This document shows positions 1 to 22,575 of a stretch of DNA of 27,486 nt, in pieces (the stretch's first letter is position 1; every line of letters begins with the position of its first letter). The notes under the pieces are model-generated. The model was given only the letters and a program-made list of their open reading frames with translations, was not told where the DNA came from and did no database searches. The translations under genes and the position numbers were made by a program. Origin of the DNA: Candidatus Moanibacter sp. (GTDB lineage Bacteria > Verrucomicrobiota > Verrucomicrobiia > Opitutales > UBA2987); the NCBI GenBank assembly GCA_965215885.1, contig CBDCEW010000001.1, positions 1 to 27,486 of the forward strand, in the 5' to 3' direction.

Positions 1-176
1 TCACGCGCATGGGCGTCCAGATCCTTCTCGACCGCCTCGATGATTTGCGGCGCGAACCCGGCCAATTCTTCAACTTCATCCAGAAAATCACGAAAATCCG
101 TGTCTGGAACCGGCAGAATGAGGTTGCTAAGGGGCGTCTTATCGCTTTTGTTCTCCTCTGTCGCACATGTTGGCAT
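1..176 (-). CDS. 5' part of a minus-strand ORF running off the window edge; possibly a transposase (IS5/ISNCY-like), otherwise hypothetical
   Basis: Not in the ORF track because it has no stop in the window. ATG at 176 reads open to position 1: MPTCATEENKSDKTPLSNLILPVPDTDFRDFLDEVEELAGFAPQIIEAVEKDLDAHAR. AT-rich upstream DNA. The transposase call is a recollected resemblance only; no DDE motif lies in the window. Confidence 0.5.
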   Translation of the reverse strand, partial: MPTCATEENKSDKTPLSNLILPVPDTDFRDFLDEVEELAGFAPQIIEAVEKDLDAHAR

Positions 177-270
177 GTTTAACTCATTTCTTAATCTTAA
201 GTTGTTAAACACTAGTATGTTACGACACTTTTTATCAAGCCGAAAAACTGATTTTTCTCAAGTTTTTCTT

Positions 271-299
271 GCGCCTTTTGCGCCTCTTTGCGGCCAATC
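271..299 (-). repeat. REP-like purine-rich repeat (ggccgcaaagaggcgcaaaaggcgcaa)
   Basis: The reverse complement resembles 15101-15134 (gatggccacaaaagagcgcaaagaacgcaaaagg); both show a ~9-nt periodic gcgcaaa/acgcaaa unit. Confidence 0.55.
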
Positions 300-406
300 A
301 GTAGCTTTTCGGATAAGGTCAAGCTATGGAGGATGTACAACGAATGGGGAATGTGAGAGCATTGAAAGCAACGAATCAGGAGCGGCGAGAAGTAAATGAA
401 AAAGAC

Positions 407-671: not shown

Positions 672-1586
672 ATGATACCTCTTATTAGCAGTCTTTGTTA
701 TGGTCTACTCGGCGTCTGTCAGTTGCCGCGCACGTGGTGGAAGGTGCTAACGCGTAATGCGGAGATAATGGACGAAGAGTATCCGGACTTCAGCGGTGGC
801 CTCGATCGCAGGGTCTTTGAAGTACTCGGCCTCGACAAGGAGACGACATTGAAGTGGTTGCGTGATGAGATGCCGACTTATCTCGAATTTGAAGCCTGGA
901 TTCTAAAGGAAAAAGGAAGTGAATTCTACGGTTTTGAACAACAGGATGCGATCGTTAAGTGGAACGCCTGGTTGCGCGCTCGCCGACACACACGCCCGGA
1001 GAAAATCGAAGAGACTTATAGCGACATTGGATTATCCAGAGATGCGGGAATCGACTCAGCAGTTATCCTCAACTGCCTTCAGGACTGGCAGTTGTTTCAC
1101 AAGCGCGACCTCAACTCAGATTACGCCGGCAAACTCGGCGGTCGTGTGGTACCCCTCATTGCCACCTTGGATTACGGTCCCTTGGGCGTGCGACAACTGC
1201 CACGCACGTGGTTCAAGATCATTCTCCGAGCCAAAGGTCTTCTGCACCCCGACTATCCGGACATGACCGAGAACGGTCTCGATCCCCGCGTCCTCCACGT
1301 GCTGAACCTCGACATCGATACCACATTGAGCACGATTCGCGAGAAACTTCCGTCATATCTCGATTTTGAATCGTGGGTGCTCGAACAGTGCGGTGGCGAA
1401 CTCCCTACTCGGGCAATCGAAGAGTGGAACGACTATCTCTGCAATCGTATCCACGATGAAGGCAAACGCGAAGACATTCACGCTACCGTCGGCCGTGAAA
1501 ACGATGGCGCGCTCTCCTCTGCGGTCGTCCTTAACCATATTGAGGACTGGCACTTCGCGCACCGGGATCTTGTGGGATGCGAGTGA
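672..1586 (+). CDS. Tandem double DUF5069-like domain protein
   Basis: 304 aa with two ~145-aa homologous halves, each with P-L-I...Y-G-x-L-G-V-x-Q-L-P-R-T-W-x-K, YPD...GLD, P[TS]YL[ED]FE[AS]W and SAV[IV]LN..[QE]DW..[FA]H..DL. This pattern matches DUF5069-type proteins as I recall them. Confidence 0.75.
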   Translation: MIPLISSLCYGLLGVCQLPRTWWKVLTRNAEIMDEEYPDFSGGLDRRVFEVLGLDKETTLKWLRDEMPTYLEFEAWILKEKGSEFYGFEQQDAIVKWNAWLRARRHTRPEKIEETYSDIGLSRDAGIDSAVILNCLQDWQLFHKRDLNSDYAGKLGGRVVPLIATLDYGPLGVRQLPRTWFKIILRAKGLLHPDYPDMTENGLDPRVLHVLNLDIDTTLSTIREKLPSYLDFESWVLEQCGGELPTRAIEEWNDYLCNRIHDEGKREDIHATVGRENDGALSSAVVLNHIEDWHFAHRDLVGCE

Positions 1587-2000: not shown

Positions 2001-2125
2001 GCCCCTCCAGGCGAGACATGTCCTTCGGTAGTTAAGGCTTGTCTCTGAGAGCCTGCCCGAAAGGCGATCTCCCTTCGATGGGGGTGTCGATGGGGCGGCT
2101 TTCCGGGAAACGGGAACTTTTCTTC
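2001..2125 (+). ncRNA. Candidate structured RNA of unknown family
   Basis: Nested complementary segments: gcccc 2001-05/ggggc 2092-96, caggc 2008-12/gcctg 2051-55, gagaca 2013-18/tgtctc 2040-45, cctt 2022-25/aagg 2034-37, ctccc 2069-73/ggggg 2080-84. TTGACA lies at 1973-78. A hairpin (ttccgggaaacgggaa) and pyrimidine run follow. No known riboswitch motif recognised. Confidence 0.3.
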
Positions 2126-2266
2126 TAAGAAATACTCAGGTTGGGTGTCTTATAAGGGTATGGAGGAGGCTAACCCACAGATTTCAACGCTTTGGCGCAA
2201 ACGGAGTGAAGCAGATAGTGAAGAATTGGTTGAGAATTCGGGGAAAAATACAGCCTGCGTCCGTTC

Positions 2267-2410
2267 GAGTTTGCGCCAAAACTCACATCCATTCTGCTGT
2301 ACAGCAGAACGGCGTAGCTGCGTTCTCGCAGAAATCCCGCGCGGTTACGCACAGCAGTGCGCGCCCGCACGGGATTTCGCTCGGACCTTGCCATCCACGC
2401 TTCTGAAAAG
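2267..2410. repeat. Palindrome/hairpin-rich MITE- or REPIN-like element in the sigma-factor leader
   Basis: Perfect 18-bp palindrome ttctgctgtacagcagaa (2292-2309). Long hairpin gaaatcccg...cgcac-agca-gtgcg...cgggatttc (2331-2378). gagttt/aaactc inverted repeat (2267-2284). Single copy in this window. Confidence 0.45.
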
Positions 2411-2460
2411 TGTGGAATATGCAGGTTAAAGTGGCAGGCAGGGACCATGCGAATGAGAGG

Positions 2461-3009
2461 ATGAAACCGGTCGACTCAACAGGGGAAGCGGAAGAACCAA
2501 TGCCGAAATCGCTGGACGGTCTCTTCCACACTCTCGAATCGCCGCTCCTTTTGTATGCCATGCAACTTGTTAGTTCCAATGAGGTCGCCCAGGACCTTGT
2601 GCAGGAGGCTTTCCTGCGCTTGCACGCCCGGTTTGGTGAAGTGAAACGGCCGCGGCCGTGGTTATACAGAACGGTGCATAACCTGGCGATGAACCACCAT
2701 CGGAGGCTGGCCCGAGAGCGACCAGCGGAAGATGATCGGGAGGGAGAAAAAGACGACAACCTGGCGAGCACCGAACTGATGCCGGATGAGCGGCTCGAAC
2801 GATTGGAGGCAATCGGCCTGGCCTGGTTGCAGATCGAGCAGCTCGAGAATCGGGAGCGGGAGGTCCTCCTCCTCCGGTTTGAGGAGGAGCTCTCCTACCG
2901 GCAGATCAGCGAGCGCACAGGACTCACCATCAGTCACGTCGGCTACCTGCTGCATCAAAGCCTTAAGGTTATCAGCGGGGAACTGGAGAAAATGGGGATT
3001 ATGCGATGA
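2461..3009 (+). CDS. ECF-type RNA polymerase sigma-70 factor
   Basis: Region 2 motif AQDLVQEAFLRL..PWLYRTVHNLAMNHHRR and region 4 HTH REREVLLLRFEEELSYRQISERTGLTISHVGYLLHQSL. Start uncertain (2410, 2416, 2461 or 2500). The stop overlaps the next ATG (ATGA 3006-3009). Confidence 0.93.
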   Translation: MKPVDSTGEAEEPMPKSLDGLFHTLESPLLLYAMQLVSSNEVAQDLVQEAFLRLHARFGEVKRPRPWLYRTVHNLAMNHHRRLARERPAEDDREGEKDDNLASTELMPDERLERLEAIGLAWLQIEQLENREREVLLLRFEEELSYRQISERTGLTISHVGYLLHQSLKVISGELEKMGIMR

Positions 3010-5837
3010 AGGAGAGGAACAACAACAGCAACGACCCTGAACAGGACGAACGCGAGCAGATGGAAGTTCGCCTTACGGCGCTTGCTCTCGGTGAAGCGAG
3101 TGATTTCGAAGCGGCCGAACTGCGCCGCGCGATGGACGCCGATCAGGAACTGGCGAAGTACTATCGTCGGGTGGAAATAACGGCTGGAATCGTTCGTGAG
3201 GCCGCGAGTCAAACGGACGCAGTTTCCGGCGCGACTGCTCCGCGTTTGAGCGAGGAGCGGCGAAATACGATCCTGAAGAGAATGAAACCTCAGCGCGCAT
3301 CGTTTTCTTCTATCATTCGATTCCCTCGTGCGCTGCCCATGGGCGTTGCCGCGAGCCTCGTCCTGGGAATCGGTTTCCTCTATTGGGCGCTCTTTCGCGG
3401 TGTGGTCGATAGCGAATTTCGGAACATCACAGGTGAGGGTGCTGGATCCTCTGAACTCCTTGTGTCATCTCCATCTCCAGATGAGCGCGCTGAAGTCGGA
3501 GAAGGGGCTTACTCTTCGCGAGAAGATATAGATCTCTCGGAGATTAAGGCAGTTGAGATTGATTTGGCTATTAGTCAGAGAGTGGCCGAATTGCGGAAGG
3601 ACGAATTGGAGTCTGCTGACTTGCAGGATATATCTCGAAATCGGTCCACCAATATGGCGCTAGGTGACAGGTTGGTGGTTGCTCCAGATATCTTCGCATC
3701 TGATCTCGTGGGCGGGAAACCTGGCCCACGCACGGAAACTGAAAAACAATCCGAGATTCACAGCTACCAGAACCTCAGGATCGGTGATGGCGAAGATTCA
3801 TTGCCGGTCGATACAAATCACGGCGATATCGTCGGTTTCGGTTTCGTGCCTGATAATGAGGCATTCGAACTGGAGCCTCCATTTCCCGAGGCAGCCCCGA
3901 AGGAAAAAGACGCGCTAAAGTTGAGTGCGTTTGAGGTTTCGAGGGAGGGCGATAGAGAATGGGACGGAGGGTTTACTCAATCGAAGAGTAATGTGGCCGC
4001 CGTGCAGGGGCAGATTTCCGAACCGGAAAGGATCGGGAGAACTGACTACTTTGCCTCGGATTTTGAAACAAGCGAAGTCCCTGCGTATGTTCTGACTTCC
4101 GATCTTGTCGCCCAAGACTTCGGTCCGGAGATGCGCGGCAAGAATAAGGGCCGGAGTATAGCCGTCGGAGAGGGAGAGGGAGAGGGACTGGAAATTTACG
4201 GAGTGCAATCAGGTATAATTATTGAGCGCAGCGAGCTTAAACGGAAATTGGCAACAGACGAGACGCAAGCGTTCCCAGCCGGTGCTTTGGGACAACAGAA
4301 CGATAAAAGTATAAGAATTGATTCGGTGGATACGCTTGCACCTGTTGCAGTCGATGCGCGGTCCGACACTGTGCGCGGCCAGGCTGGTTATGGCGGCGGG
4401 GCAGGGAAGGGGGATGGAAACTACCGGGCATCGGACGAGGATAATACGAAGAACGGGTTGGAAAATTACATAGGCCAGAAGGTGGCGGTGCGACGCTACG
4501 AACCGCTTCCGGAGATTGTCACGGCAGAAGAGCCGTTCTCTACTTTTTCTTTAAACGTGAGCGACGTGTCTTTCCAATTGGCGGAGGCGGCGCTTGTAAA
4601 AGGGAAAATGCCGTCTCCCCTGGATATTCGGAGCGAAGAGTTTCTCAACGCGTTCAACTACCACGATCCGGCGCCGACTGGAGGCGTGCCTCTCGCTTTT
4701 CACTGGGAGCGCGCACGCTCGCCTTTTCATCACAATCGGGAGTTCCTGCGCTTTTCCGTCCAAACAGCGTCAGAGGGACGGGAGCGCGCAAGGCCCCTTA
4801 ATCTGGTGCTTCTGATCGACAATTCGGGCTCCATGGAAAGGGCCGATCGCCGGTCGATCGTGCGGGCCGCAGTCGCGGTTCTGGCGGATGCGATGGGGGA
4901 GGGAGACCGTATCAGCGTGGTGGCATTCGACCGGACTCCGCACCTCCTTCTCGACGGCGTCGAGCGGAATTTTCAATCAAACGTTGCGGGGGCGGTAGAC
5001 AGCTTGAAGGCGAGCGGCGCGACCCACCTCGAAGGCGGACTCGATCTGGCCTACGAGGTGGCCAAGACTCAATTCCGTCCCAAAGCCGGTAACCGCGTGG
5101 TGTTGTTGACCGACGGAGCCGCGAATCTCGGCGAAGTGCTGCCTGACAACCTCCGCTCGAAAATCGCTTTCCATCGGAAGTTGGGCATCGCCCTGGATTG
5201 TTTCGGGATTGGGGCGGACGGACTCAATGACGCGATGTTGGAAGCGCTCTCCCGCAACGGCGACGGCCGCTATGGATTCCTCAATTCCGTGAAGGATGTG
5301 GAAAAGGGTTTCAGCAGGAAGCTGGCCGGTATTCTGCAGACCGCGGCCTCGGACGTGAAAGTGCAGGTGGAATTCAATCCCGGCCGCGTGGAAGCTTACC
5401 GTCAGCTCGGTTATCGCCGGCACCAACTCAAGCGCGCTGATTTCCGCGACGACGCGGTGGACGCCGCCGAGATCGGCGGAATCGAATCGGGCAACGCGCT
5501 ATATCTGGTTGCGCAAAAGCAGAGAGGAGTGGGTCCGATCGCCACGGTGCGGGTGCGCTTCCGTGATCCGGCAACGAGGGAAGTGCGGGAACTTTCCTGG
5601 CAGATTCCCGGGAGGCGCGAGGCGCCGGCCCTGCGGGAGGCGAATCCGTCACTTCGCCTGGCGGTGGGCGCCACTCTGTTCGCGGAATGGCTTGCAGGGA
5701 GCCCTTACGCTGAGGGCGTAACGCCAAGGCTGATCCTGGAGAATTACAGCGAGGTACCCGAAGCCTTCCCTTTGGATGAAGAGCCTTTGCGGCTTCGTGA
5801 AATGATTGAGAGGGCGGGGGCGATTAGTGGAAGGTGA
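3006..5837 (+). CDS. Anti-sigma-like membrane protein with C-terminal YfbK-type vWF_A + vWA + DUF3520 domains
   Basis: N-terminal anti-sigma-like helices (LTALALGEASDFEAAELRRAM), one TM (MGVAASLVLGIGFLYWALF) and a long acidic linker. Then EPFSTFSLNVSDVS..IRSEEFLNAF.Y (vWF_A), MIDAS LLIDNSGSM/GATH/LLTDG, and IA.DVKVQVEFNP-like ..YRQLGY...L...DF.DD.VDAAEI (DUF3520). Confidence 0.88.
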   Translation: MKERNNNSNDPEQDEREQMEVRLTALALGEASDFEAAELRRAMDADQELAKYYRRVEITAGIVREAASQTDAVSGATAPRLSEERRNTILKRMKPQRASFSSIIRFPRALPMGVAASLVLGIGFLYWALFRGVVDSEFRNITGEGAGSSELLVSSPSPDERAEVGEGAYSSREDIDLSEIKAVEIDLAISQRVAELRKDELESADLQDISRNRSTNMALGDRLVVAPDIFASDLVGGKPGPRTETEKQSEIHSYQNLRIGDGEDSLPVDTNHGDIVGFGFVPDNEAFELEPPFPEAAPKEKDALKLSAFEVSREGDREWDGGFTQSKSNVAAVQGQISEPERIGRTDYFASDFETSEVPAYVLTSDLVAQDFGPEMRGKNKGRSIAVGEGEGEGLEIYGVQSGIIIERSELKRKLATDETQAFPAGALGQQNDKSIRIDSVDTLAPVAVDARSDTVRGQAGYGGGAGKGDGNYRASDEDNTKNGLENYIGQKVAVRRYEPLPEIVTAEEPFSTFSLNVSDVSFQLAEAALVKGKMPSPLDIRSEEFLNAFNYHDPAPTGGVPLAFHWERARSPFHHNREFLRFSVQTASEGRERARPLNLVLLIDNSGSMERADRRSIVRAAVAVLADAMGEGDRISVVAFDRTPHLLLDGVERNFQSNVAGAVDSLKASGATHLEGGLDLAYEVAKTQFRPKAGNRVVLLTDGAANLGEVLPDNLRSKIAFHRKLGIALDCFGIGADGLNDAMLEALSRNGDGRYGFLNSVKDVEKGFSRKLAGILQTAASDVKVQVEFNPGRVEAYRQLGYRRHQLKRADFRDDAVDAAEIGGIESGNALYLVAQKQRGVGPIATVRVRFRDPATREVRELSWQIPGRREAPALREANPSLRLAVGATLFAEWLAGSPYAEGVTPRLILENYSEVPEAFPLDEEPLRLREMIERAGAISGR

Positions 5838-6012
5838 GTGAAGAGAGACTGCCCGCTAAACACGCGAAAAGACGCGAAATTTTGGGATGGAAGGTTGTGA
5901 GATGCGAGATGCCCTTCGACGGTTCGACAAGCTCACCGCAGGCGAGGCTCAGGGCCTTCGGCGGGATGAGGGAATGGGAGTAAAGAGAGATTGCCCGCTA
6001 AACACGCGAAAA
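5836..6012 (+). repeat. Repeat family A copies 2 and 3 with a nested ttcgac..gctcaggg module
   Basis: 5836-5879 and 5983-6012 repeat the cccgctaaacacgcgaaaa core. 5911-5965 matches 15758-15790 except for an extra 23-nt ggttcgacaagctcaccgcaggc. Confidence 0.88.
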
Positions 6013-6028
6013 TGGAGAGAGTGTAATT

Positions 6029-9000
6029 ATGAAGAGATCAATGACTATAACCAGACGACCAGGTTTACTATTTGGCGGCGGTGAGCTTGAGCAGCGGCTG
6101 AAATTACGTAGACGTTCAATGGTTTTGAGAAAGCTTCTGTTGCCGAAGCTCGCGGTGATGCTGTTAACGTTTGGGGCGGGTGGTCTCGACTTGGAAGCCA
6201 ACCCTTCGACTTCGCTCCCGCCTTCCCATAAAGCTTCGGCGAGGCACGGCAGGGCAGGTGAGGGAAAAGCGGCGGCGGAACCTGTGGAGTTTCGCGATTT
6301 TCTGCTCACGGGAAACCGAGACGGGGAAACGATTACCTTCGAATTGACGGGCACGGCGCACGTTTCCGATCGCGCGGGTGGACGCCTTGTTTTTGTATCC
6401 GGTGCCGTGGCGCTCGTGGAGATGCCCACCAAAGGGAATTTCGAGATTTTATATGAGGACGGTTCCTACCAATTGAACTTTAAGCGTCCGGGTCGCTATT
6501 CCGTAAGCCTCCGTTTTCGCGCGGCGGTTCGACGGTTCGATGAGTTGTCTCCCGCTACTCCCGCCGAACGGGACGTGGCAGGCAAGCTCACTGCAGGCAG
6601 GGTGGAGGACGGTCACGAAGTTCGATTTGGGGTGGTGAGTGCACCGATACGACTCGTTGAACTCATGGGATTCAGCGAGAGTGAGCGGGTGGAACTCGAT
6701 GGCGCGACGCGGCCCGTTCGCGATGGCGATGTCCTGCGCGCCCACCTCGGACTCGGTAGCGGATTCTCTCTCACGTGGCGACGGGAGGTTCCCGAGGTAT
6801 CGAGCAAGCTTTTTTACGCCGCCGAAGCGACTGTTGCGACCGTGGTTTCGCCGGGATTGATGCGCCACGTCCACCGATGCAAGGTCACAATTTTGCAAGG
6901 GGAGATGGAGAGCATCGAATTTCTCCTTTCTGGGGAGGGCGAGATAACGCGCATCGAGGGAGAGGGATTGGTGGGTTGGGAAATCCTGACCGGAAGCGAA
7001 TCTGGCGAACGGTTACTGAGAGTGCGAATGAACCCTTCGCAGAAGGAGGATTTCCAGCTGACCGTATTCACACGCTCGCCGCTTTCTCAGTTTCCCGTTG
7101 TGGCTGAGGTATTCCGGCTGGTTCCTGTTGGGGCGACCCGGTTCAGCGGTCACCAGTTAGTTATGAATGAGGGTGCCGTGAGCATTGAGGTTACGGAGAC
7201 GGTGGGACTCTCGCAGATCACGACGGAGGCTTTCCCGCGGGCATTCCCTGGGGAAGATAGCCCGGATTTAATGCTCGACGATGGAGGAGTGCAGGCATTC
7301 GCCTTTCGAATTTCCACCCCTCGATACCGTTTGACGGTGAGGGCAGACGATGTATTGCCGGAAGTGGCGGTTTCGGCGGTGATGGTCTTCGAATTGCGGG
7401 AGACCGAGACCGTTGCGAATGTCGGTTTGGAACTGGAGGTCCGTGAGGCGCCTCTTCGCGAGTTCTCATTGCTGGTGCCGGCCGATTACTCGATTGCGTC
7501 AATCGAATTTGCACACCTCAGCGATTACTTCCTCTCCGAGGCGGAGGATTCGCAGTCCCGATTGCGTCTTGTTTTTTCGCGTCCGATTGAGGGGAGACAG
7601 TTGCTTAGTTTCCGGCTGGAGAAAAACATTGATTGGTCCGGGTCGAATTGGAACTTGCCGCGAATTGTTCCTGAAAACGTAAAATCACTAAGGGGTTACC
7701 TCGGCGTAAAAGCGGATCCGGGGATTCGTCTCTCCTCTGAATCGGTCACAGGGGTCACGGAGTTGGCAACGGCTTTCTTTCCGCGGCGCGATCCCGATCT
7801 CCAACAGGCGTATCGCATTAAAAGAGGGGACTGGCAAGTCTCAGTCGCGGTTGACCGTCTACCGGCCTCGATTCGGGCGGAGATTTTTCATCATTTCTCG
7901 ATCGGTGAAGGGATTGTCTACGGCAGTTCTCTGCTGAATCTCCATATTTCCGGAGCGCCGATATCCGTGTTGCAAGTGAAAGTTCCCGAGAGGTACGGAA
8001 ACGTGGAATTCACGGGGCAAGACGTGCGCAATTGGGAGGCAAGTTCAAACGGTTTTCAGGTTTACCTCCACTCTCCTGTTGCGGGGCCCTACACACTCCT
8101 GGCGACCTATGATGCGTCCTTTGAACACGGCGGCGAATCACTCCCGTTTTCCGGCGCTCACCCGGTGGATGTCGAATCGGAGCAGGGGTACATCGTGGTC
8201 GAGAGTCCCTACCAGTTCGGGCTGAAGAACGAGCGAGTGTCGCCGGACCTGATTCGCCTTGAGGTTGAGGAAATCCCGGCAGAGTACCGTCTACTGGTCG
8301 ATGCCCCTGTCCTCGCCGCCTATCAGTATGCGGCTCGTCCGTTCGACGCCGACCTTCACCTGGTTCTTTTTCAGCAGGGAACAACGCTCGAGCAGTTGGT
8401 AGATTTCGCCGGGTTTAAGACCGAGGTCTCCGGAAGCGGGGAGACCCTGACCATGGCGCAGTTTCTCCTCAAGAGCCAGGGGGCCTCGCACTTCCGGGTG
8501 AGGATACCCGATTCGGCGAGACTCTGGTGGGCCAATGTTGACGGTCAAAGGGTTGTTCCCGTGACTGATCGCGAGGACATTCTCATTCCACTCCCCCGGG
8601 ACAAGGCGCCGGGGATCATGACGACGGTCGAATTAAAACTTGCCGGTGTGCCTGACGAGGGCGGTCGGATTTTATTGACCCCGCCTTCTGTAGAGATTCC
8701 GGCTCTCCTGACTGAGTGGGAGGTCTCTTCCGAGCCTGGTTACCTTCTCGAGATTTCCGATCAGGACCTGCACTCCCGGATTAATGGTCTGCCTCCCGCG
8801 GGAATCACACGGTTGAAGGAGCTGATTACCGGAAAACGTGGAAACTTCCACGGAACTCTGCTAACAGTCGCCCTTGTGTTCGCAGTAGCAGGTGGCGCCT
8901 GCTTGCGGCGCCTGCGTCCGAATGGAAAAGTGGGGGTAGTATCCGTCCAGCCGCCCGGATACCTTCGAGCGGGCGCGTCCTGCTTTTTTGGGTTGATCGC

Positions 9001-12000
9001 GGTCGGTGCCCTGGCCCCCTTGGCATGGGAGGGGTTCCAGGTTTCACCGGCGGATAAAACGACCTGGCAGTTCTCTGCATCGATGGTGCCGACCGATTAC
9101 CTGGCGAACCTCGAAATGAAGGTCAGGCCGCTTATTACAGCGTGGGATTTTGCTGTTGGTTCGGTAATTGCGGTATCGGGATTGTTACTCTATTTTCTGC
9201 TCTGCGGTCACCGAGTGCTGGCGGTTGCGGCCGGCTCACCAGGCGAACGGCTTCCGGTTTACCGCGCGGCATTTAGAGCCCTTCCTGCGACCCTGATACT
9301 CAGCGGACTGCTGCAACTCCCGTACGGGGAGATCGCGCTGCTTAGCCTCTTCGCCACGGTTATTGTATGGCGGGTTGTCCGACCTTCGGCCCGAGCCTTG
9401 GGGCAGGGTCTCCGTGGAGACTCGGCGTTGGTGTCGGCTTCGCGGGCCGGATCTACTTTGGCAGTCGTCGCGATCTCTCTCGGGATATTGCCTGGCCAGG
9501 ATGCCCATGGGGATGTTGGGAAGGCCGATTCCGGAAGGACTGCAGAATCCCTTGAACAGACTTTGACCGTGAATGAAGACTATGCCGCGGTCGAATGCGT
9601 GATGTTGTGGGACGCGGAAAGGGGCGAAACCCTCATTATTCTGGAACACCCGGGAATTTTGACTCGCCTCGATGAAACGGACCGGGATTTCACCCTGATT
9701 CGAGAATATGAGAGCGAAAGGGCCTCCTACCACCTAAAGGCGAAGCGCTCAGGCAGGCTGTCGATTCGATTTGCATACAATCTTCCCGTCCGTGAAACAG
9801 GGTCGATCAGCGAAATCGTCCTTCCTACCGTACCTGCGCTGTTTAGCGAGGCCATCGTTCAAATTGACCGACCGGATCTGGCGCTTTACTCGAAAGATGC
9901 GGTGATGATTATCGAGGAGGAAGGCTCGGGGACCGGAACGACGATTGCACGCGTCTCTCTTACCCCGGTCCGCGGCGCCCGCATTCAATGGGAGCCGAAA
10001 AAGCGCGAGACCCGCCTGGAGACTGCAGTTGTATTCGCCGAGGCGAATCACCTCTTTCAACTCGCAACGGGTGTAATCGCGGGAAACCACATTTTCGACC
10101 TTCGACTGGCACAGGGAGAAGTGCGGAAACTCTCGTTTCATATCCCTGAGGAATTTACTATAGCCGCGGTTTCGGCGGATGCTCTGGCGGGGTGGCGCTT
10201 CGATCCAGAAAGCCGGTCTTTGGAAGTGAACTTCGACTCCCCACGTACCTCGGAGTTCAGTGTCGAGATTCGCTCGCAAAGCGAAGCCGGCGGGCTGCCC
10301 TACCTTCAGCGGCTCGGGATGATTTCGGTCGAAGGGGTGGTTGGGGAAGTGGGACTTGTGGGGATTGTGACCAGTTCCGAGGTTCAACTGGGGGAGACGC
10401 GGGGCGAAGGGTTGGCACCGATCAATATCGAGGACTTTCCGCTTGAACGGTTTCAAAGTGAAGGCGGTGCGAGCGATCGGCTGTCCTTGCGGCGGGCCTT
10501 TCGATTTTCAAATATCTCTGTTGCTCTGGAACTCGAAACGCTGGCGATTGAGCCCCTGGTACGGTCGTCGGTGCGCCAAACGCTTTCCCTGGGCGAGGAT
10601 CAAACCGTCCTCGCGACGGATTTGGAGACTACCGTCACGCGTGCCGGAGTATTCGCCCTGAGCTTCAACCTTCCCGAACAGTTCGAAGTCGAGAGCATAA
10701 CCGGCTCAGTGCTCAGTCACTGGACCGAATCCGACTCCGGCGATGGGACTGTTATCACTCTGCACACTGTGGGAAAGGTGACGGGAGAGCATGCATTTCA
10801 TGTCAATCTCATTGGACCAGGTGTGAGTCCTGACCTTCTTCTGAGAGCTCCTCGGCTTGTCCTGCGAGAGTCTGAAAAACACCGTGGGATTATCTTCGTT
10901 GTGCCGGAGGAAGGTATGAGATTGAGTATCGTCGACCGGGACGGACTTACCCAGGTGGACCCGCGCGAAGCAGGAGTCAATCGTCCGGGTGTGCAGGTTT
11001 TTCGCCTTTTGAAGAGCGACTGGAAACTTGGATTCGAAGTCGAGAAAATTGACCCTTGGATCGAGGTGGCATCGCTCCAGGACGCTACCATCAGGGAAGG
11101 CCTCATCGAGGTGCGCGGGATTCTCAATTACAAGATTGAGAATGCCGGGGTCAAGACCCTCCGCGTGTGGATACCTTCGAATGCAGCCGGTGTGCTATTT
11201 TCCGGGGATTTCATCGAAGAATCCCAAGCGGTCTCGGATAGTGACGGATCGTGGTCGGTCGCATTGCGGCGTCGGGTGATCGGTGAATATCGCCTGGAGG
11301 TATCTTTCCAGATGGTGGTAAAGGGCGTCAGTTTTCCCCATTCGATTGAAGGTATTCGCGCCATCGACGCCTCTCTCCAGCGCGGATATTTCACTTTGCG
11401 CACGGTGGGCCGATTGGAACTGCGGGTGCCCTCCAGGCCATCCGCACTGCAACCCTTGCATTGGGAGGCTATTCCCCGGGACTTGCTCCCCGAGTCGCTT
11501 GATCCGCCCGTTCTCGCGTTTCGCGCTTTGGCTCCGGATTTTGTCCTACCCCTCGAAGTTTTGCGCCACCAGACGGCGGAGGTGCTGCCGGCCCGTGTGA
11601 CTGGGGCGAATTTCATTTCGCTCGTATCCGAAGCCGGGGAGATCCTCACCGTAGTGCGCATTCGCCTCCACCCTGGCGACAAGCGTCATCTCCGGGTCAG
11701 ATTGCCGGCGGAAGCCGGTTTCTGGTATGCCTTTGTCAATGACCGGAGCGCCCTACCGTGGCGAGATGGCAACGTCGTCCTCATCCCCCTCGGGGAGCGT
11801 CTGGAAAGTGGAGATGCTTCTACCGTCGAGTTTGTGTATGCAACATCGGAAAAATCCTTATTCCCTGGCGAATCAGTAGTGCCATTGGACGGGCCTAAAT
11901 TTGACCTTCCTCTCGAGAATATTGAGTGGCGTGTGTTTCTTCCCGAGCACCTCCGGCTCGCTGCCTATGAAGGAGACCTCGTCAAAAAGCGGGAATACGG

Positions 12001-12694
12001 GGCCTTTTCCGCGCCTTACGGGTTTAACTTGGAGGCCTACCTCAATGGAGAGAAATCACACCTGGCGGCAAAGATTGAGCGGGCCGAAGAGATGCTGACC
12101 GCCGGTAACGATCTGGTGAACCGGGGAAACCAGCGCGCCGCCCGAGACGCCCTCAAGTCGGCATATTCACTCTCCCGACATGATGAGGCGTTTAACGAAG
12201 ACGCCCGCGTCCAGTTGAACAATCTCCTCACCCGCCAGGCGTTGGTCGGTCTCGCAATGCGCCGCGACCGTTTGCTGCAACAGTTTTCTCCTGATTCGAA
12301 GGGGTCCGTCATACCTCTGCGAGGCGGCGCCGGACCTATGAGTTTCACCCCTCAGCAAGCACAGGCGGTAATGGGTGGCATTCCCGCGGAAGAAGGCGCC
12401 GTCCTTACCCGATTGGCGCAAAGGATCGTCCGCCAGCACACTTCGGTGATCGACTCTCCGGACGCGATTCGCGCGAGCTTGCCGCTGCGGGGCCGGGAAT
12501 ACACCTTTACCCGGCCCCTTCAGGTGGAACTTTGGCAGAACCTCGGTCTGGTTTTGGGAACACGCGAGAAATTTGACTGGACCGGTCGCTGGGAGCTCTC
12601 CCTGATTGCCGCAGGTCTATTCTTTGCCTTTGCTGCGATTCGGAGCGTCTTATCAATGTCTCGGGCGCGATTGGCGGGGTCTCAGAGTGAATGA
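6029..12694 (+). CDS. Giant (~2,200 aa) uncharacterised membrane protein made of two homologous beta-repeat halves separated by a multi-TM block
   Basis: Uninterrupted 2221-aa ORF. Signal-peptide-like MVLRKLLLPKLAVMLLTFGAGGLDLEA suggests a true start at ATG 6119. Hydrophobic block at nt ~8840-9510, C-terminal TM (LSLIAAGLFFAFAAI), and repeated ~170-180-aa modules. No catalytic motif recognised. Confidence 0.85.
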   Translation: MKRSMTITRRPGLLFGGGELEQRLKLRRRSMVLRKLLLPKLAVMLLTFGAGGLDLEANPSTSLPPSHKASARHGRAGEGKAAAEPVEFRDFLLTGNRDGETITFELTGTAHVSDRAGGRLVFVSGAVALVEMPTKGNFEILYEDGSYQLNFKRPGRYSVSLRFRAAVRRFDELSPATPAERDVAGKLTAGRVEDGHEVRFGVVSAPIRLVELMGFSESERVELDGATRPVRDGDVLRAHLGLGSGFSLTWRREVPEVSSKLFYAAEATVATVVSPGLMRHVHRCKVTILQGEMESIEFLLSGEGEITRIEGEGLVGWEILTGSESGERLLRVRMNPSQKEDFQLTVFTRSPLSQFPVVAEVFRLVPVGATRFSGHQLVMNEGAVSIEVTETVGLSQITTEAFPRAFPGEDSPDLMLDDGGVQAFAFRISTPRYRLTVRADDVLPEVAVSAVMVFELRETETVANVGLELEVREAPLREFSLLVPADYSIASIEFAHLSDYFLSEAEDSQSRLRLVFSRPIEGRQLLSFRLEKNIDWSGSNWNLPRIVPENVKSLRGYLGVKADPGIRLSSESVTGVTELATAFFPRRDPDLQQAYRIKRGDWQVSVAVDRLPASIRAEIFHHFSIGEGIVYGSSLLNLHISGAPISVLQVKVPERYGNVEFTGQDVRNWEASSNGFQVYLHSPVAGPYTLLATYDASFEHGGESLPFSGAHPVDVESEQGYIVVESPYQFGLKNERVSPDLIRLEVEEIPAEYRLLVDAPVLAAYQYAARPFDADLHLVLFQQGTTLEQLVDFAGFKTEVSGSGETLTMAQFLLKSQGASHFRVRIPDSARLWWANVDGQRVVPVTDREDILIPLPRDKAPGIMTTVELKLAGVPDEGGRILLTPPSVEIPALLTEWEVSSEPGYLLEISDQDLHSRINGLPPAGITRLKELITGKRGNFHGTLLTVALVFAVAGGACLRRLRPNGKVGVVSVQPPGYLRAGASCFFGLIAVGALAPLAWEGFQVSPADKTTWQFSASMVPTDYLANLEMKVRPLITAWDFAVGSVIAVSGLLLYFLLCGHRVLAVAAGSPGERLPVYRAAFRALPATLILSGLLQLPYGEIALLSLFATVIVWRVVRPSARALGQGLRGDSALVSASRAGSTLAVVAISLGILPGQDAHGDVGKADSGRTAESLEQTLTVNEDYAAVECVMLWDAERGETLIILEHPGILTRLDETDRDFTLIREYESERASYHLKAKRSGRLSIRFAYNLPVRETGSISEIVLPTVPALFSEAIVQIDRPDLALYSKDAVMIIEEEGSGTGTTIARVSLTPVRGARIQWEPKKRETRLETAVVFAEANHLFQLATGVIAGNHIFDLRLAQGEVRKLSFHIPEEFTIAAVSADALAGWRFDPESRSLEVNFDSPRTSEFSVEIRSQSEAGGLPYLQRLGMISVEGVVGEVGLVGIVTSSEVQLGETRGEGLAPINIEDFPLERFQSEGGASDRLSLRRAFRFSNISVALELETLAIEPLVRSSVRQTLSLGEDQTVLATDLETTVTRAGVFALSFNLPEQFEVESITGSVLSHWTESDSGDGTVITLHTVGKVTGEHAFHVNLIGPGVSPDLLLRAPRLVLRESEKHRGIIFVVPEEGMRLSIVDRDGLTQVDPREAGVNRPGVQVFRLLKSDWKLGFEVEKIDPWIEVASLQDATIREGLIEVRGILNYKIENAGVKTLRVWIPSNAAGVLFSGDFIEESQAVSDSDGSWSVALRRRVIGEYRLEVSFQMVVKGVSFPHSIEGIRAIDASLQRGYFTLRTVGRLELRVPSRPSALQPLHWEAIPRDLLPESLDPPVLAFRALAPDFVLPLEVLRHQTAEVLPARVTGANFISLVSEAGEILTVVRIRLHPGDKRHLRVRLPAEAGFWYAFVNDRSALPWRDGNVVLIPLGERLESGDASTVEFVYATSEKSLFPGESVVPLDGPKFDLPLENIEWRVFLPEHLRLAAYEGDLVKKREYGAFSAPYGFNLEAYLNGEKSHLAAKIERAEEMLTAGNDLVNRGNQRAARDALKSAYSLSRHDEAFNEDARVQLNNLLTRQALVGLAMRRDRLLQQFSPDSKGSVIPLRGGAGPMSFTPQQAQAVMGGIPAEEGAVLTRLAQRIVRQHTSVIDSPDAIRASLPLRGREYTFTRPLQVELWQNLGLVLGTREKFDWTGRWELSLIAAGLFFAFAAIRSVLSMSRARLAGSQSE

Positions 12695-19157: not shown

Positions 19158-21125
19158 AAGGCAAGAGGCTGACGAACCAGTTGCCTGCATGCAGCAAGAA
19201 TTCTGGCTGCGAGAGTGAGTTAGCGCGATCATCCATCGGTGTTCATCGACGGAGCGATCCTTGGGGTAATGATTTTTATTTTCGATCGACCAATGGTTGC
19301 GAGGCTGCGAGAGGAACAGTTGAAGGCTCAATATCGGTGACGGATACGAGACTGCTTACGTAGTAAGAGCGTTCAGAGAAGGTTGAAGCTTTGTTAGGCT
19401 AATGGAAGGTGCGTCTTTACACAGGCGAACTGGCGGGCAAAGCGCAGGCCGATTGCAAAAGTAACTGCTTAGAGAATGGGTTGCTATTTGACGTATTTCC
19501 AGTCGCCCATGGTCATTGTCCAACGGATCGGTGCGTGAAAAAGGGGGTGGAGCTGAACGAGATTCTGAGCGTATTGATGCATGATGGGCTGCATTACCCA
19601 GAATTTAAAAAACAGAAAACAGCGCTGAAATTCTTCGACGACGATGTGGGCAGTTTCCCCGAGAGTATCGCATGGCGTCGAAGGTGAAGGTGGAGCCGTC
19701 CAAAACTGGGAAACCGTCGCAAGAGAGTCAGGTAGAGCGATGATCGCGTTGGATCGTATCGGCGGTCGGCGACTTGGGCTAAGGTCCGAGCGCTATGGTG
19801 ACCGAAAGTCGGCCACCAGGTGCAAAGCCTTTGATTCTTCAGGTGTTTGTGGCTGTGACCGTCTTGCCGATCGAAGTGCAACCTGTCGCGGCGCAAATAG
19901 GCGGGTTGGGCAAGCAGATGAATTCGGCGAGGGTTTAAGTCGAAGAGCTCAGCCATGGTACGTTTCGCAAGACCCGATAGAAGACATCATAGAAAGAGTT
20001 TGAGTCTTATCAGAGGCCTGTTCGTGATGGTGTTCGTCTCTTGAAACCTCAGGCGCGCATTTCGGTTCTTCAATCTTCTGGAGATGATGGGCCAGGCGCA
20101 CGATGCCCAAGGAAGAGTCAGTTTGCCGCACATCGTGCCGAGCATACTCATGGTCAGGACAGTTCGCCAGCCCCAGGTATCTAAGCCACCAGCTTGAGTG
20201 AGGGCGGGAGCACCGGCAATACCGATTGAAGCGTTCCGACAGGCTTCTCATTTATTCCACTTTGAGCAGTGCCCCTCCTGCTCATAGTTATCGGTTTGAT
20301 TCAGCGCCTGGCTAAGTGCCGAGGGCAATGGCCCTAGAGGCTGCGCAAAAACGCTCAAGGGCATTAGGCCTTGAGCGGTTTGATCAACATCTGCTTGGGA
20401 CGCTGGTTCCGTTGAGGGAAATCTTCAGCATCATGGCCGGCCCGATATCCCAAGCTCAAGCTCCAAGGTGCGAACCACCCATTTCGCGCTCGATCGCATC
20501 GTGCCCAGGATTCCAATCTGTGGGAGCGCCCCAACGTTTCCGCTACTAAAGGAAGATAGCCCCAAAAGCCTCCAACCTAGTGACCGTCTAAGACTGGGAA
20601 GGCACCTCCCCAACGAGCTTGGAGGCCAAATTTGCCGCGGTCCAGGAAAGGCAAGCATCAGCAAACGCCGGCATCCGTAGATGACCAGTTTCAACCGTGT
20701 GCCGTTGAAGCCCCGTCCCACCCGATTCGTTGCGTCTCGAAACTCATTGAAGGCAGAGTAGAAAACGATCTTCCCGGGCTAGAGCAGGCCTGTCGGACTT
20801 TGTCCGTCGGATCTGCTGTGCACAGTAGCGCAGGGTCTCCTCCTGACAGGCTGCCTTGCACTGTGTAAATAATGATCGGTGGTGGAATCGATCCGTGAAT
20901 CGCACGAATGCACCTAGAAAGCAGCAGCGCAGACGCAAAATCGCAAAGCGAAGTCTATCGACAGGATTCCTAGTTGCGTACGGTTTCGGCGAGCGCTTCC
21001 TCCCATCTTAACATGACTGATTCCCCGGGTTTGTTTAGCTCTTCCATTATCTTCTTGCTTATCGCTAGTGGCGTCCTGGATAACTCGCGATAGAATCCTG
21101 GTACGACATTGCTAGAGGGACTGGT
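19057..21125. repeat. Indel-riddled direct tandem copy of ~21120-22760 (kinase 3' end, whole MFS gene, pilB 3' end); probable long-read assembly artefact
   Basis: Collinear anchors: gattggactgggcgacga (19137/21174), gagagtgagttagcgcg (19211/21228), gtggtgttcgtctcttgaaacctca-like (20027/21837), gaaactcattgaaggcagag (20739/22419), gataactcgcgatagaatcc (21080/22710). Confidence 0.9.
19220..20747 (-). pseudogene. Garbled duplicate of the MFS transporter gene
   Basis: Short in-frame islands are near-identical to the MFS protein (QKIEEPK..EVSRDEHHHE, LAQPAY, ADRRYD, SSAKWVVRT) with no continuous frame. Confidence 0.7.
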
Positions 21126-21141
21126 CCAGGACTCGCTACTC

Positions 21142-21240
21142 GCTCGACAGATAATCGAAGGACATGGAGGAACGATTGGACTGGGCGACGAGAAAGGCAA
21201 GGGCACGGCATTTTGCATACAGTTGCCGAGAGTGAGTTAG
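21142..21240 (+). other. Displaced true C-terminus of the histidine kinase HATPase domain
   Basis: Reads ARQIIEGHGGTIGLGDEKGKGTAFCIQLPRVS-stop, the canonical HATPase_c tail. It is preceded by a noisy GxGLGLA-like stretch. Confidence 0.85.
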
Positions 21241-22427
21241 CGCGTATCCATGGTGTTCATGACGGAGCGACCTTGGGAGGCGAAGAGAATGGCGGAGGCT
21301 GCAAGGACAGTAAGGAATACGGTGACGGATACGGCGAGGTAAACGGCAGAGATTGAAGCTGTAGGCTATAATGCTCTTTACACCCCAAACAGAAAGCGAG
21401 CCGATTCTCAAAAGTAACTGTAAATTTCAATCCGTAACCAGTACTGCGCCAACGATCGGGCGTGAACCGAGCAACGAGACTGTTTTCGATGGGCTGCATA
21501 CCCAGAATAAAAAACAGTAAACCCGCTGAAATTCCGAGGAGGGAACCCCCGAGAGTATCGCCATACCAAGCAAGAAAGGAAAACTGAAACCGTGAAAGAG
21601 CAGGTAGAGGATACGCAGATCGTAGCGGTCGGCGAGTCGCCCTCCGACGTATTGACCGAAAGTCCCAATAAAGAAGACCAGGGCAACGTGTCTGGTACCG
21701 TAACGCGATGACCGGTTGAACCTGTTCGTCGAAATAGGCGGGTTGGGCAACAGTTATTGCGCGGTAAGTAAGACCAGCCATGGTCATCGCGACCATGAGG
21801 ATAAGAAAGAGTTTGAGTCTTTCAGAGGGTTCGTGATGGTGTTCGTCTCTTGAAACCTCACCGGATTTCGGTTCTTCAATCTTCTGGAATGATACAGCCA
21901 GCCCAAGGAAGAGCAGGAGAAGGCCCATACTCAGGTAGGCAGTTCGCCAGCCCCAGGTATTTGCCACCAGTTGAGTGAGGGCGGGAGCACCGGCAATACC
22001 GATGTTTCCGAAAATTCCATTTATTCCAAGAGCAGTGCCCCTCCTGCTCATAGTACGGGTGATCAGGCTTAAGCCCGAGGGATGGTAGAGGCTGGCAAAA
22101 ACGCCAATCAAGGCCAGAGCGAGGATCAACATTGTTCCTGGTTCCGCGAGGGAAACCAGCATCATGGCCGGCCCGATTCCAAGAACTCCGGTGCGAACCA
22201 CCCATTTCGCGCTCGATCGATCGGTCAGGATTCCAACGGGGAGCGCCCCAATTCCAAAAAGGAAGAAGCCCCAAAAACTTCCAACCTAAAACCGTCTCGA
22301 TGGGAAGGCCCTCCTCCCGAGCGAGGGAAATTGCCGCGGTAGGAAAGGCAAGCATGGCAAAGTGGCATCCGAGATGACCGACACCGGTGAGTTGAAGGGT
22401 ATTGCGTTCGTTGCGTGAGAAACTCAT
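21237..22427 (-). CDS. MFS transporter with several frameshifts (probably sequence errors)
   Basis: Stitching ORF pieces gives MSFSRNERNTLQLTGVGHLGCHFAMLAFP.. / GILTDRSSAK.. / ASLYHPSGLSLI..RGTALGINGIFGNIGIAGAP..WGWRTAY.. / GQYVGGRLADRYDLR.. / QPIENSLVARFTPDRWRSTGYG. The ATG 22427 to TAA 21237 span is 1191 bp (397 codons), typical of a 12-TM MFS. Confidence 0.8.
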
Positions 22428-22575
22428 TGAAGGCAGAGAGAAAACGATCTTCCCGGGCTACTGAGCCTGTCGGACTTTGTCCTCGGATTGCGTGTGCAAG
22501 TACCAAATCTCCTCCGACAGGCTCCTTGCTGGAAGATAATCGGTGGTGGAATCGGCCGTGATCCACGAATCGCAC

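What the first reader, a model, noticed from the sequence alone, without database searches (positions are those of the whole stretch)
2461..12694. Candidate undescribed envelope-sensing system: ECF sigma + anti-sigma/vWA(MIDAS) receptor + giant duplicated membrane protein
Seen: three co-oriented genes, the first two translationally coupled (ATGA), and only repeat DNA between genes 2 and 3. Gene 2 joins a cytoplasmic anti-sigma-like domain and one TM to an extracytoplasmic YfbK-type vWA domain with intact MIDAS. Gene 3 is a ~2,200-aa non-enzymatic-looking multi-repeat membrane protein. Known: ECF anti-sigmas relay extracytoplasmic signals, and MIDAS vWA domains bind acidic residues of partner proteins via Mg2+, as in integrin I-domains. 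Inference: the vWA domain docks on the giant protein to form an integrin-like adhesion/mechanical or envelope-state sensor that controls the sigma factor. I know of no characterised system with this architecture.
Basis: partly seen in the sequence, partly recalled or inferred. Interest (0 to 1): 0.8.

Follow-up and report, generated by a model that had tools for sequence, protein, structure and literature searches.

The report
Sigma switch with envelope-decoy tether
A three-gene unit conserved across Verrucomicrobia pairs a stress-type sigma factor and an unstudied 2,200-residue membrane protein with a likely membrane inhibitor whose long outer tether is patched with fragments resembling the cell's own envelope proteins, which likely act as baits that switch the unit on when the envelope is attacked.

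Summary
In detail: ECF sigma (2461-3009), one-TM anti-sigma/YfbK-vWA with intact MIDAS (3006-5837), and a duplicated giant (6029-12694). The order is kept in 49 of 49 informative GTDB loci; in a phylum sample, 15 of 18 two-arm giants have the vWA gene next upstream. The sigma + vWA anti-sigma pair is catalogued (ECF226/ECF289); the giant is not. AlphaFold shows two arms of five ribophorin-I/aminopeptidase-N-terminal-like beta-sandwiches, with no peptidase motif. A conserved ECF promoter (TCTAAGAA-N13-GTGTC, 2124-2149) is the top genome-wide hit, so the operon is likely autoregulated. New here: the TM-to-vWA tether is long (median 604 aa, against 119 in giant-less paralogues) and hypervariable. 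It carries selected fragments of envelope proteins (Wzc, secretin, TonB-receptor N-termini, pilin, lipoprotein, autotransporter repeats) in 27 of 59 tethers; reversed controls give none. Such a tether argues against rigid integrin-like signalling and for a bait/decoy sensor. That the vWA binds the giant remains inferred. This scan found the triad at least eight times on other DNA; one note saw a Wzc piece.

The parts
2122..2152 (+). Predicted cognate ECF promoter: -35 TCTAAGAA (2124-2131), -10 GTGTC (2145-2149)
   Evidence: Motif found upstream of 48 of 58 triad sigmas. This site was not in the training set and scores 34.3 bits, the best in the genome (next 21.7); shuffled 3-Mb strands reach at most 22.9.
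2170..2440 (.). Multi-copy ~270-bp repeat inserted between promoter and sigma ATG
   Evidence: 10-15 genomic copies across its length; absent at the same place in same-family genome G300.
2461..3009 (+). ECF sigma factor, 182 aa (sigma2 + sigma4)
   Evidence: Pfam Sigma70_r2 and r4_2, TIGR02937 over its cut-off.
3006..3395 (+). Gene 2 N-terminus: class I anti-sigma-like domain (zinc ligands lost here) and single TM (aa 112-130)
   Evidence: Weak NF052375 anti-sigma hit, E 1e-3; TM scan; CxxC/zf-HC2 kept in deep-branching orthologues.
3402..4493 (+). Gene 2 tether, ~365 aa, low-complexity; carries a TonB-box-like LSAFEV (3921-3938; label recalled) and an 18-aa piece matching the C-terminal peptide of an exported protein gene on contig C18 (4125-4178)
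   Evidence: 14 of 18 aa identical, pN 0.14 against pS 0.90; score 74 against a maximum of 64 in 200 block shuffles; LSxFEV also occurs near the N-termini of two TonB-dependent receptors of this genome.
4494..5837 (+). Gene 2 head: vWF_A + VWA + YfbK_C with MIDAS D605/S607/S609/T673/D703
   Evidence: the closest solved structures by profile are ITIH4 (E 8e-17) and 8s05.
5838..6028 (.). Intergenic repeats (up to ~49 genomic copies of the first part); no terminator-like site
6029..9130 (+). Giant, signal-like N-terminus and arm 1: five beta-sandwich domains; the fifth carries a two-TM hairpin insert (aa 938-1004)
   Evidence: AlphaFold2 mean pLDDT 86.4; for the distal domains, fold match to ribophorin I Z 14.1, M1 aminopeptidase N-terminal domain Z 13-14 at rmsd ~3.5, ITIH1 Z 9.9.
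9140..9508 (+). Giant, membrane linker (about four more TMs; the last resembles an internal signal peptide)
   Evidence: single-arm relatives occur as separate genes.
9542..12694 (+). Giant, arm 2: five beta-sandwich domains; the fifth carries a soluble TPR-like helical insert (aa 2001-2140) with motif HDEAFNEDARVQL (12179-12217); C-terminal TM
   Evidence: AlphaFold2 mean pLDDT 87.8; ribophorin I Z 15.5; D2058 invariant in 90 of 90.

Best explanation
This is a conserved three-gene envelope module in which a likely anti-sigma factor would hold the ECF sigma at the inner membrane until its bait-studded outer tether is likely cut or engaged, whereupon the sigma would switch on its own operon, including the giant membrane protein on which the vWA head likely docks. 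Shown: gene order and conservation; domain anatomy; invariant MIDAS; a promoter motif before the operon; and a long, hypervariable tether carrying fragments of exported envelope proteins under purifying selection. Inferred from class I anti-sigma biology (my own knowledge): ASD-sigma binding and release by site-1 cleavage followed by intramembrane proteolysis. Inferred from co-occurrence: the Mg-MIDAS head binds the giant, most likely at the invariant acidic NEDAR insert, so that the tether is displayed as a loop in the periplasm. Inferred from the mosaic: the fragments are decoys for whatever attacks or mis-handles pili, secretins, TonB receptors or capsule export (foreign proteases, predators, phage, or unassembled partners). 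The giant is a non-catalytic two-armed periplasmic scaffold and the only constant output.
For: Triad order in 49 of 49 GTDB loci with upstream DNA; sigma in 43 of 43. In a 200-genome phylum sample the 17 best vWA hits are the 17 genomes (own included) whose giant has the NEDAR insert (profile partly built from them). In a tree, 20 stand-alone vWAs form one 100*-supported clade that excludes the giant-linked ones. G195 has a giant without the insert and no YfbK-vWA match. Promoter in 48 of 58 upstream regions against 11 of 1160 shuffles; top genome hit at 2122; a second copy directly before the giant in 2 of 63 loci. Tether median 604 aa (n=58) against 119 (n=15); 28% identity where the vWA core is 77%. 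17 of 59 tethers hit this genome's proteins at E<=1e-3 against 0 of 59 reversed. All 13 in-frame targets are envelope proteins (Pfam labels for 2 Wzc, 1 secretin and 1 TonB receptor; pilin, lipoprotein and C18 labels read from sequence). Best matches lie in the tether's own genome (in one search for the lipoprotein piece, near-tied for the pilin piece). Fragments are 48-70% identical between orthologues against 22-45% for the rest of the tether in 9 of 10 pairs. ITIH4, the closest solved relative of the head, works by bait cleavage plus MIDAS (PMC7793589, passages).
Against: No cleavage, binding or induction is shown. 32 of 59 tethers show no recognisable fragment. One of 15 stand-alone tethers also carries a secretin piece, and stand-alone sigma-vWA pairs exist without a giant, including one in this genome. 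The protease-trap link is sporadic: only 2 of 40 alpha-2-macroglobulin genes have a promoter-proximal site, and sites >=13 bits number 3 sense against 2 antisense. Genome-wide pattern counts do not exceed reversed-pattern controls. In G169 the sigma-vWA pair is not next to the giant, and in G197 three genes intervene. The promoter model misses 9 deep-branching triads. Related genomes are not independent samples.
Confidence: 0.4

Rival explanations
1. The fragments are docking tags, not sacrificial baits. The tether binds the cell's own envelope machines (TonB, secretin, pilus, Wzc/Wza) and reports their assembly or energisation, for example by TonB pulling on a TonB-box-like segment.
For: The fragments are interaction modules such as secretin N domains, STN, TonB-receptor N-termini, pilin heads and the Wzc periplasmic region. 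They are conserved as folded-domain-sized pieces of 50-170 aa.
Against: The fragment set differs between relatives, and one tether can carry several unrelated pieces (G300: pilin, lipoprotein, TonB-box-like segments), which suits broad baits better than one partner.
Confidence: 0.2
2. The giant is only a transcriptional output. The vWA head binds an outside ligand or protease (ITIH4-like) and never touches the giant.
For: Promoter before the operon and, in 2 of 63 loci, directly before the giant. Stand-alone sigma-vWA pairs exist without a giant. Distant three-arm giant operons exist without sigma or vWA nearby.
Against: Giant-linked vWAs are a separate lineage with five-fold longer tethers, and the NEDAR insert is found only in giants of genomes with such a vWA.
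Confidence: 0.2
3. One reading: vWA-giant docking transmits adhesion or mechanical strain to the anti-sigma domain.
For: Invariant MIDAS, an invariant Asp in the giant, and long multi-domain beta arms.
Against: The head is tied to the TM by a 125-1034-aa hypervariable low-complexity tether. Both proteins are predicted to sit in the same membrane. Foldseek's integrin hits have TM-scores of 0.09-0.15 and rmsd of 25-42 A.
Confidence: 0.1
4. Only the tether's length matters. The fragments are passengers of recombination with abundant envelope genes.
For: More than half of the tethers have no detectable fragment; whole-tether dN/dS in close pairs is ~0.45.
Against: Hits are in frame and to envelope proteins only; off-frame hits are antisense shadows in one locus. 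Fragments keep their protein sequence while synonymous sites approach saturation.
Confidence: 0.1

Closest known systems
ECF226 (Casas-Pastor et al. 2021, PMC7826278, supplement passage)
   Same: Includes Verrucomicrobia; +1 putative anti-sigma with one TM, DUF3520 and von Willebrand domain (DUF3520 = PF12034/YfbK_C is recalled).
   Different: Described with no conserved promoter and no context beyond the anti-sigma; here there is a conserved promoter, a conserved giant third gene and a mosaic tether. Not experimentally studied in the passage read.
ECF289 (same paper, main-text and supplement passages)
   Same: +1 vWA-DUF3520 one-TM putative anti-sigma; predicted autoregulation; motif CCCAAGGA / CGTCTxA resembles ours (TCTAAGAA / GTGTCTTA).
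   Different: 100% Proteobacteria; no giant partner mentioned; motif not identical.
ITIH4 (PMC7793589, passages)
   Same: Best PDB match of the vWA head by profile (E 8e-17); bait cleavage plus Mg-MIDAS complex formation is a precedent for the proposed logic. The giant's fifth domains resemble the ITIH1 N-terminal region (Z 9-10).
   Different: Soluble human plasma inhibitor, with no TM, anti-sigma domain or transcriptional output; similarity covers the vWA core only.
Ribophorin I (RPN1/Ost1) lumenal domain and M1 aminopeptidase N-terminal domain
   Same: Fold of the giant's distal domains (Z 13-15.5); membrane-anchored extracytoplasmic tandem domains.
   Different: 8-17% identity; rmsd 11-14 A over the two-domain ribophorin match; ten domains in two arms; no HExxH.
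DdvA/DdvS of Myxococcus xanthus (PMC11506125, abstract only)
   Same: Transmembrane zinc-finger anti-sigma with a large periplasmic sensor; proposed proteolytic release; defence output.
   Different: TPR-CHAT sensor controlling CBASS/CRISPR; no vWA, tether mosaic or giant.
Plant NLR integrated decoys and the alpha-2-macroglobulin bait region (recalled; bait variability also in PMC7793589 passage)
   Same: A variable region displaying copies of attack targets, coupled to a fixed response module.
   Different: Analogy only; no homology.

Membership tests
ECF (group 4) sigma factor | sigma2 and sigma4 only, under ~200 aa | tested here: met
ECF226 | +1 gene with one TM, DUF3520 and vWA; taxon range includes Verrucomicrobia | tested here: met
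ECF226 | No conserved promoter and no conserved context beyond the anti-sigma | tested here: not met
   Conserved motif in 48 of 58; giant in 49 of 49 informative loci.
ECF226 / ECF289 | Assignment by the group HMMs of the classification | not testable with these tools
   ECF group HMMs are not held; the supplement copy was cut when stored.
ECF289 | Proteobacteria only | tested here: not met
   Homologous loci are Verrucomicrobiota by record titles and phylum samples.
ECF289 | Promoter CCCAAGGA / CGTCTxA | tested here: inconclusive
   Related but distinct consensus TCTAA(G/T/C)(A/G)A-N13-(G)TGTC.
Class I anti-sigma factor (ASD/ZAS) | Cytoplasmic N-terminal ASD of ~80-100 aa before one TM, gene coupled to the sigma | tested here: met
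   zf-HC2 in orthologues; zinc ligands absent in the window's protein.
Class I anti-sigma factor (ASD/ZAS) | Binds and inhibits the cognate sigma | not tested
MIDAS-type vWA domain | DxSxS...T...D | tested here: met
   Invariant in 60 of 60.
M1 aminopeptidase (giant) | HExxH zinc site in a catalytic domain | tested here: not met
   No HExxH in the window's giant; present in 5 of 247 long homologues; models contain no zincin domain.
Ribophorin I / OST subunit (giant) | RPN1 lumenal fold | tested here: inconclusive
   Z 14-15.5 but rmsd 11-14 A and 8-12% identity; no sequence hit.
Ribophorin I / OST subunit (giant) | Association with an STT3/PglB-type oligosaccharyltransferase | not tested
   No conserved fourth neighbour in 101 loci; genomes not searched for PglB.
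Integrin-like receptor | Rigid multidomain leg coupling the MIDAS head to the TM | tested here: not met
   Hypervariable low-complexity tether of 125-1034 aa.
ITIH4-like bait-and-trap inhibitor | Cleavage in a bait region followed by a MIDAS-dependent complex with the protease | not testable with these tools
   Needs biochemistry.

The most novel reading that the evidence does not exclude
A bacterial integrated-decoy receptor: an anti-sigma factor that captures fragments of its host's own pilin, secretin, TonB-receptor, capsule-export and lipoprotein genes into a periplasmic tether, pins the tether's MIDAS head on a previously undescribed ten-domain ribophorin-like scaffold, and releases its sigma when an attacker or envelope failure hits a decoy.
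Probability: 0.3. Interest if true: 0.85.

Novelty: new variant of a known kind. Interest (0 to 1): 0.64.

Why it matters
Site-1 signals are unknown for most ECF groups, and the vWA-DUF3520 anti-sigmas (ECF226/ECF289) are untested. The tether mosaic gives a concrete, testable input: each fragment names a candidate stimulus. If the fragments are decoys, bacteria use the integrated-decoy logic known from plant immune receptors to survey their own envelope, and the fragments would map what attacks environmental Verrucomicrobia. Independently, the giant defines a large unannotated family (2,470 representatives at E<=1e-30) of membrane-anchored ribophorin-like domain arrays. The promoter gives a ready reporter.

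Tried and rejected
Complex prediction of the vWA head + giant aa 1850-2183 + Mg gave no answer (score 0.28, mark 0.32; controls not folded); it is not used for or against binding. RNA: the one metatranscriptome (share 0.08) gave only short scattered contigs in the sigma and giant genes, none across 5837-6029, and DNA carry-over is possible, so co-transcription is untested. A core protease-defence regulon was rejected: 2 of 40 macroglobulin genes have a proximal site. Isolated cases remain: G204 and G293 (found through the motif; G266 negative), a 13.8-bit paralogue-type site before this genome's macroglobulin, and one macroglobulin gene inside the G197 operon. DUF4139 genes carry the motif in 5 of 10 genomes with a match, three of them discovery cases; this genome had no match. 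No conserved fourth gene. The giant is not an aminopeptidase. CAGE (bioRxiv 10.1101/2025.09.22.677704, abstract, passages and sections 8 and 11) is a different, Ig-like cage protein as described; no sequence comparison was made. Integrin Foldseek hits were dismissed on geometry. No plasmid copy. ESM Atlas gave only unnamed clusters (Verrucomicrobiota, Acidobacteriota, Planctomycetota; recognition value below threshold). An attempt to sample another phylum through a locus titled Acidiferrales returned the same Verrucomicrobiota genomes, so the range outside the phylum was not surveyed. The sigma tree does not cleanly separate triad from stand-alone sigmas (4 changes). VIA lists were filled by the distal domains, so the folds of domains 1-3 were barely tested. 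Literature searches (listings only): ECF + anti-sigma + von Willebrand; YfbK; Verrucomicrobia + ECF; DUF3520, which found only the classification paper; DUF4139 + sigma factor, none; bait/macroglobulin; ribophorin/PVC; decoy/RIP; MuiA. None of the listings described the giant or the mosaic tether; subscription papers are not covered.
Full report
Observation. The three genes are at the stated places on the + strand. Gene 1 is an ECF sigma with sigma2 and sigma4 only. Gene 2 starts in the sigma's stop (ATGA, 3006-3009). It reads: N-terminal ~100-aa domain, one TM at aa 112-130, a ~365-aa low-complexity stretch, then vWF_A/VWA/YfbK_C. The MIDAS residues are invariant in 60 of 60 homologues. The 191 bp before gene 3 are genomic repeats with no terminator-like site. 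Gene 3 (2,221 aa) has no Pfam, NCBIfam or PDB sequence match and is an internal duplication (E 2e-36).

Conservation. A GTDB scan found 376 stretches encoding relatives of the giant and returned the best 80. In 31 the giant begins within 300 bases of the contig end. All other 49 have the vWA gene next upstream, and all 43 with room for it have the sigma; a few have small genes or mobile ORFs inserted. In an evenly drawn sample of 200 genomes of the phylum, 22 have a match, 18 of them a two-arm giant. Of these 18, 14 show sigma-vWA-giant and one shows vWA-giant at a contig end. G197 has three genes in between, G169 has the pair on another contig and not followed by the giant, and G195 has no YfbK-vWA match at all. 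The 17 best vWA hits are the 17 genomes (own included) whose giant bears the NEDAR insert. That profile was partly built from those genomes, so I checked with a tree of 53 rows (15 of the near-identical L001-L080 rows kept): the 20 stand-alone vWAs form one 100*-supported group that excludes the giant-linked ones. This genome also has a stand-alone sigma-vWA pair on C19. Record titles and phylum samples place the triad in Verrucomicrobiota; other phyla were not surveyed. No fourth gene is conserved.

The giant. AlphaFold2 models of both halves are confident locally (pLDDT 87.8 and 86.4, pTM 0.50). Each arm has five beta-sandwich domains. The distal ones match the ribophorin I lumenal region (Z 15.5 and 14.1, rmsd 11-14 A), the M1 aminopeptidase N-terminal domain (Z 13-14, rmsd ~3.3) and ITIH1 (Z 9-10); domains 1-3 were barely tested. 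There is no HExxH. The fifth domain of arm 1 carries a TM hairpin. The fifth domain of arm 2 carries a soluble TPR-like insert with the motif DxAFNEDAR, whose last Asp (D2058) is invariant in 90 of 90. I infer a signal peptide and about seven TMs, with both arms in the periplasm. The family is large (2,470 representatives at E<=1e-30). Distant members form three-arm operons (1+2 or 1+1+1 genes) without the NEDAR insert and without sigma or vWA in the DNA fetched.

Anti-sigma identity. The N-terminal domain has a weak anti-sigma hit, aligns as a class I ASD ahead of a single TM, and keeps the zinc-finger (zf-HC2) ligands in deep-branching orthologues. Binding to the sigma was not tested.

Promoter. 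Motif discovery upstream of triad sigmas gave -35 TCTAA(G/T/C)(A/G)A and -10 (G)TGTC, present in 48 of 58 regions against 11 of 1160 shuffles. The ten misses are nine deep-branching triads and the window's own 330-bp stretch, which stopped short of its site. Scanning the whole genome put the best hit (34.3 bits; next 21.7; shuffled maxima 20-23) at window 2122-2152. A ~270-bp multi-copy repeat separates it from the sigma ATG; same-family G300 lacks the insertion. Two of 63 loci have a second copy directly before the giant. The operon is therefore likely autoregulated, and the giant is the constant output. Secondary sites precede exported proteins in several genomes: DUF4139 in 5 of 10 genomes with a match, small secreted proteins, and some macroglobulins. 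However, pattern counts do not exceed reversed controls, only 2 of 40 macroglobulin genes have a proximal site, and the stand-alone paralogues have a similar -35, so these are accessory leads.

The tether. Between TM and vWA head, giant-linked proteins have 125-1034 aa (median 604, n=58) against 42-291 (median 119, n=15) in stand-alone ones (kin are not independent). Among 265 close pairs the head is 77% identical and the tether 28%. The tethers hold pieces of other envelope proteins. Against this genome's proteome, 17 of 59 hit at E<=1e-3 and 0 of 59 reversed. In a six-frame test 17 of 60 hit in frame, and off-frame hits were antisense shadows in one locus. With a target set enlarged by three of the tethers' own hits, 21 of 59 hit: Wzc 12, secretin 7, TonB receptor 2. 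Pfam finds autotransporter repeats, TPRs or secretin domains in 14 of 59, against 0 of 15 stand-alone. The union is 27 of 59. In three tethers searched against five genomes each, the best non-orthologous match lay in the tether's own genome. G300's tether has a pilin head, a 74-aa lipoprotein piece, TonB-box-like segments and the same short peptide as the window. The window's own tether has no Pfam hit but carries an 18-aa piece matching the C-terminus of an exported protein on C18 (14 of 18 identical; pN 0.14, pS 0.90; above all 200 shuffles) and an LSAFEV like the N-termini of its TonB receptors (the TonB-box label is recalled). Orthologous fragments are 48-70% identical against 22-45% for the remaining tether in 9 of 10 pairs. 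One stand-alone tether also has a secretin piece.

Mechanism. My best reading (0.4): the ASD holds the sigma; the MIDAS head likely docks on the giant, so the tether is displayed in the periplasm; attack on a decoy fragment would lead to cleavage, intramembrane proteolysis and sigma release, inducing the operon. Proteolytic release is taken from general class I anti-sigma biology (recalled; DdvA abstract). The bait-plus-MIDAS precedent is ITIH4, the head's closest solved relative. Rivals: docking tags that monitor the cell's own machines (0.2), giant as pure output (0.2), passenger fragments (0.1).

Known versus new. The sigma + one-TM vWA-DUF3520 pair is described as ECF226 (including Verrucomicrobia; no conserved promoter or context) and ECF289 (Proteobacteria; related motif; untested) in PMC7826278 (main-text and supplement passages; the supplement copy was cut, and its tables may bear on group assignment). 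I do not file the sigma in either group: each fails one stated feature and the HMMs were unavailable. The giant, the promoter and the tether mosaic were not found in the paper searches listed under Tried and rejected. Consulted after my analysis, this scan's index holds at least eight reports of the same triad on other DNA; one noted a Wzc-like tether piece, and a search for decoy/bait wording found none. Verdict: a real new variant of a known regulator kind, with an undescribed scaffold family and a testable, possibly new sensing principle.

Noticed in passing
G000:C19 (L081 4175-7465): Second ECF + ASD-TM-vWA/YfbK pair without a giant. Same -35 but -10 CGTT; an ATG lies 6 nt after the -10 core, as for several motif-preceded secreted genes (likely leaderless mRNAs).
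   Followed up: partly
G000:C104:285673: 13.8-bit paralogue-type site in the intergenic region before this genome's 1,993-codon alpha-2-macroglobulin frame.
   Followed up: partly
window 2160-2429: An ATG 10 nt after the -10 core opens a short frame running through the inserted repeat, out of frame with the sigma; G300 has a short out-of-frame ORF at the same place.
   Followed up: partly
window 1-399: The contig starts inside a sequence also present on C18 (L260 ~2200-2500), antisense to a 528-aa transposase-like ORF (label from appearance): probably a multi-copy element at the contig end.
   Followed up: no
window 19594-22730: Near-identical duplicated segments (20020-20496 vs 21829-22219; 21068 vs 22699) with fragmented MFS-like ORFs: a local duplication, pseudogene or assembly artefact.
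   Followed up: no
window 672-1586: 304-aa protein of two similar halves with a weak DUF5069 hit, upstream of the promoter; not a conserved neighbour.
   Followed up: partly
L227 1307-2103 (G000:C18): Exported Gly/Gln/Glu-rich protein gene whose C-terminal peptide (the one matching the tether) lies in another frame, with a second nearby copy of the ending; next to TolQ/vWA-like and lipoprotein genes (labels from appearance).
   Followed up: partly
L092 (G071): Giant flanked by two sigma-vWA pairs: a triad-type pair upstream and a stand-alone-type pair directly downstream.
   Followed up: partly
L102 (G197), L050: Genes inserted between vWA and giant: alpha-2-macroglobulin, radical SAM and GH123 in G197; two small secreted proteins in L050.
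   Followed up: partly
L101, L100, L125, L130-L132, L138, L139: Distant three-arm operons of the giant's family without sigma/vWA; in L101 the fifth-domain insert is STN-like, so the insert position is a variable cargo slot.
   Followed up: partly
L056 9962-16526: Giant split into five ORFs by frameshifts (sequencing error or decay); the tether of the same locus has several secretin-domain pieces.
   Followed up: no
L004, L029, L041, L049, L079, L072, L074: Records titled Bifidobacterium/Bifidobacteriaceae or Acidoferrum/Acidiferrales carry typical verrucomicrobial triads or giants; L074's phylum sample coincides with the window's, so at least that title is probably wrong.
   Followed up: partly
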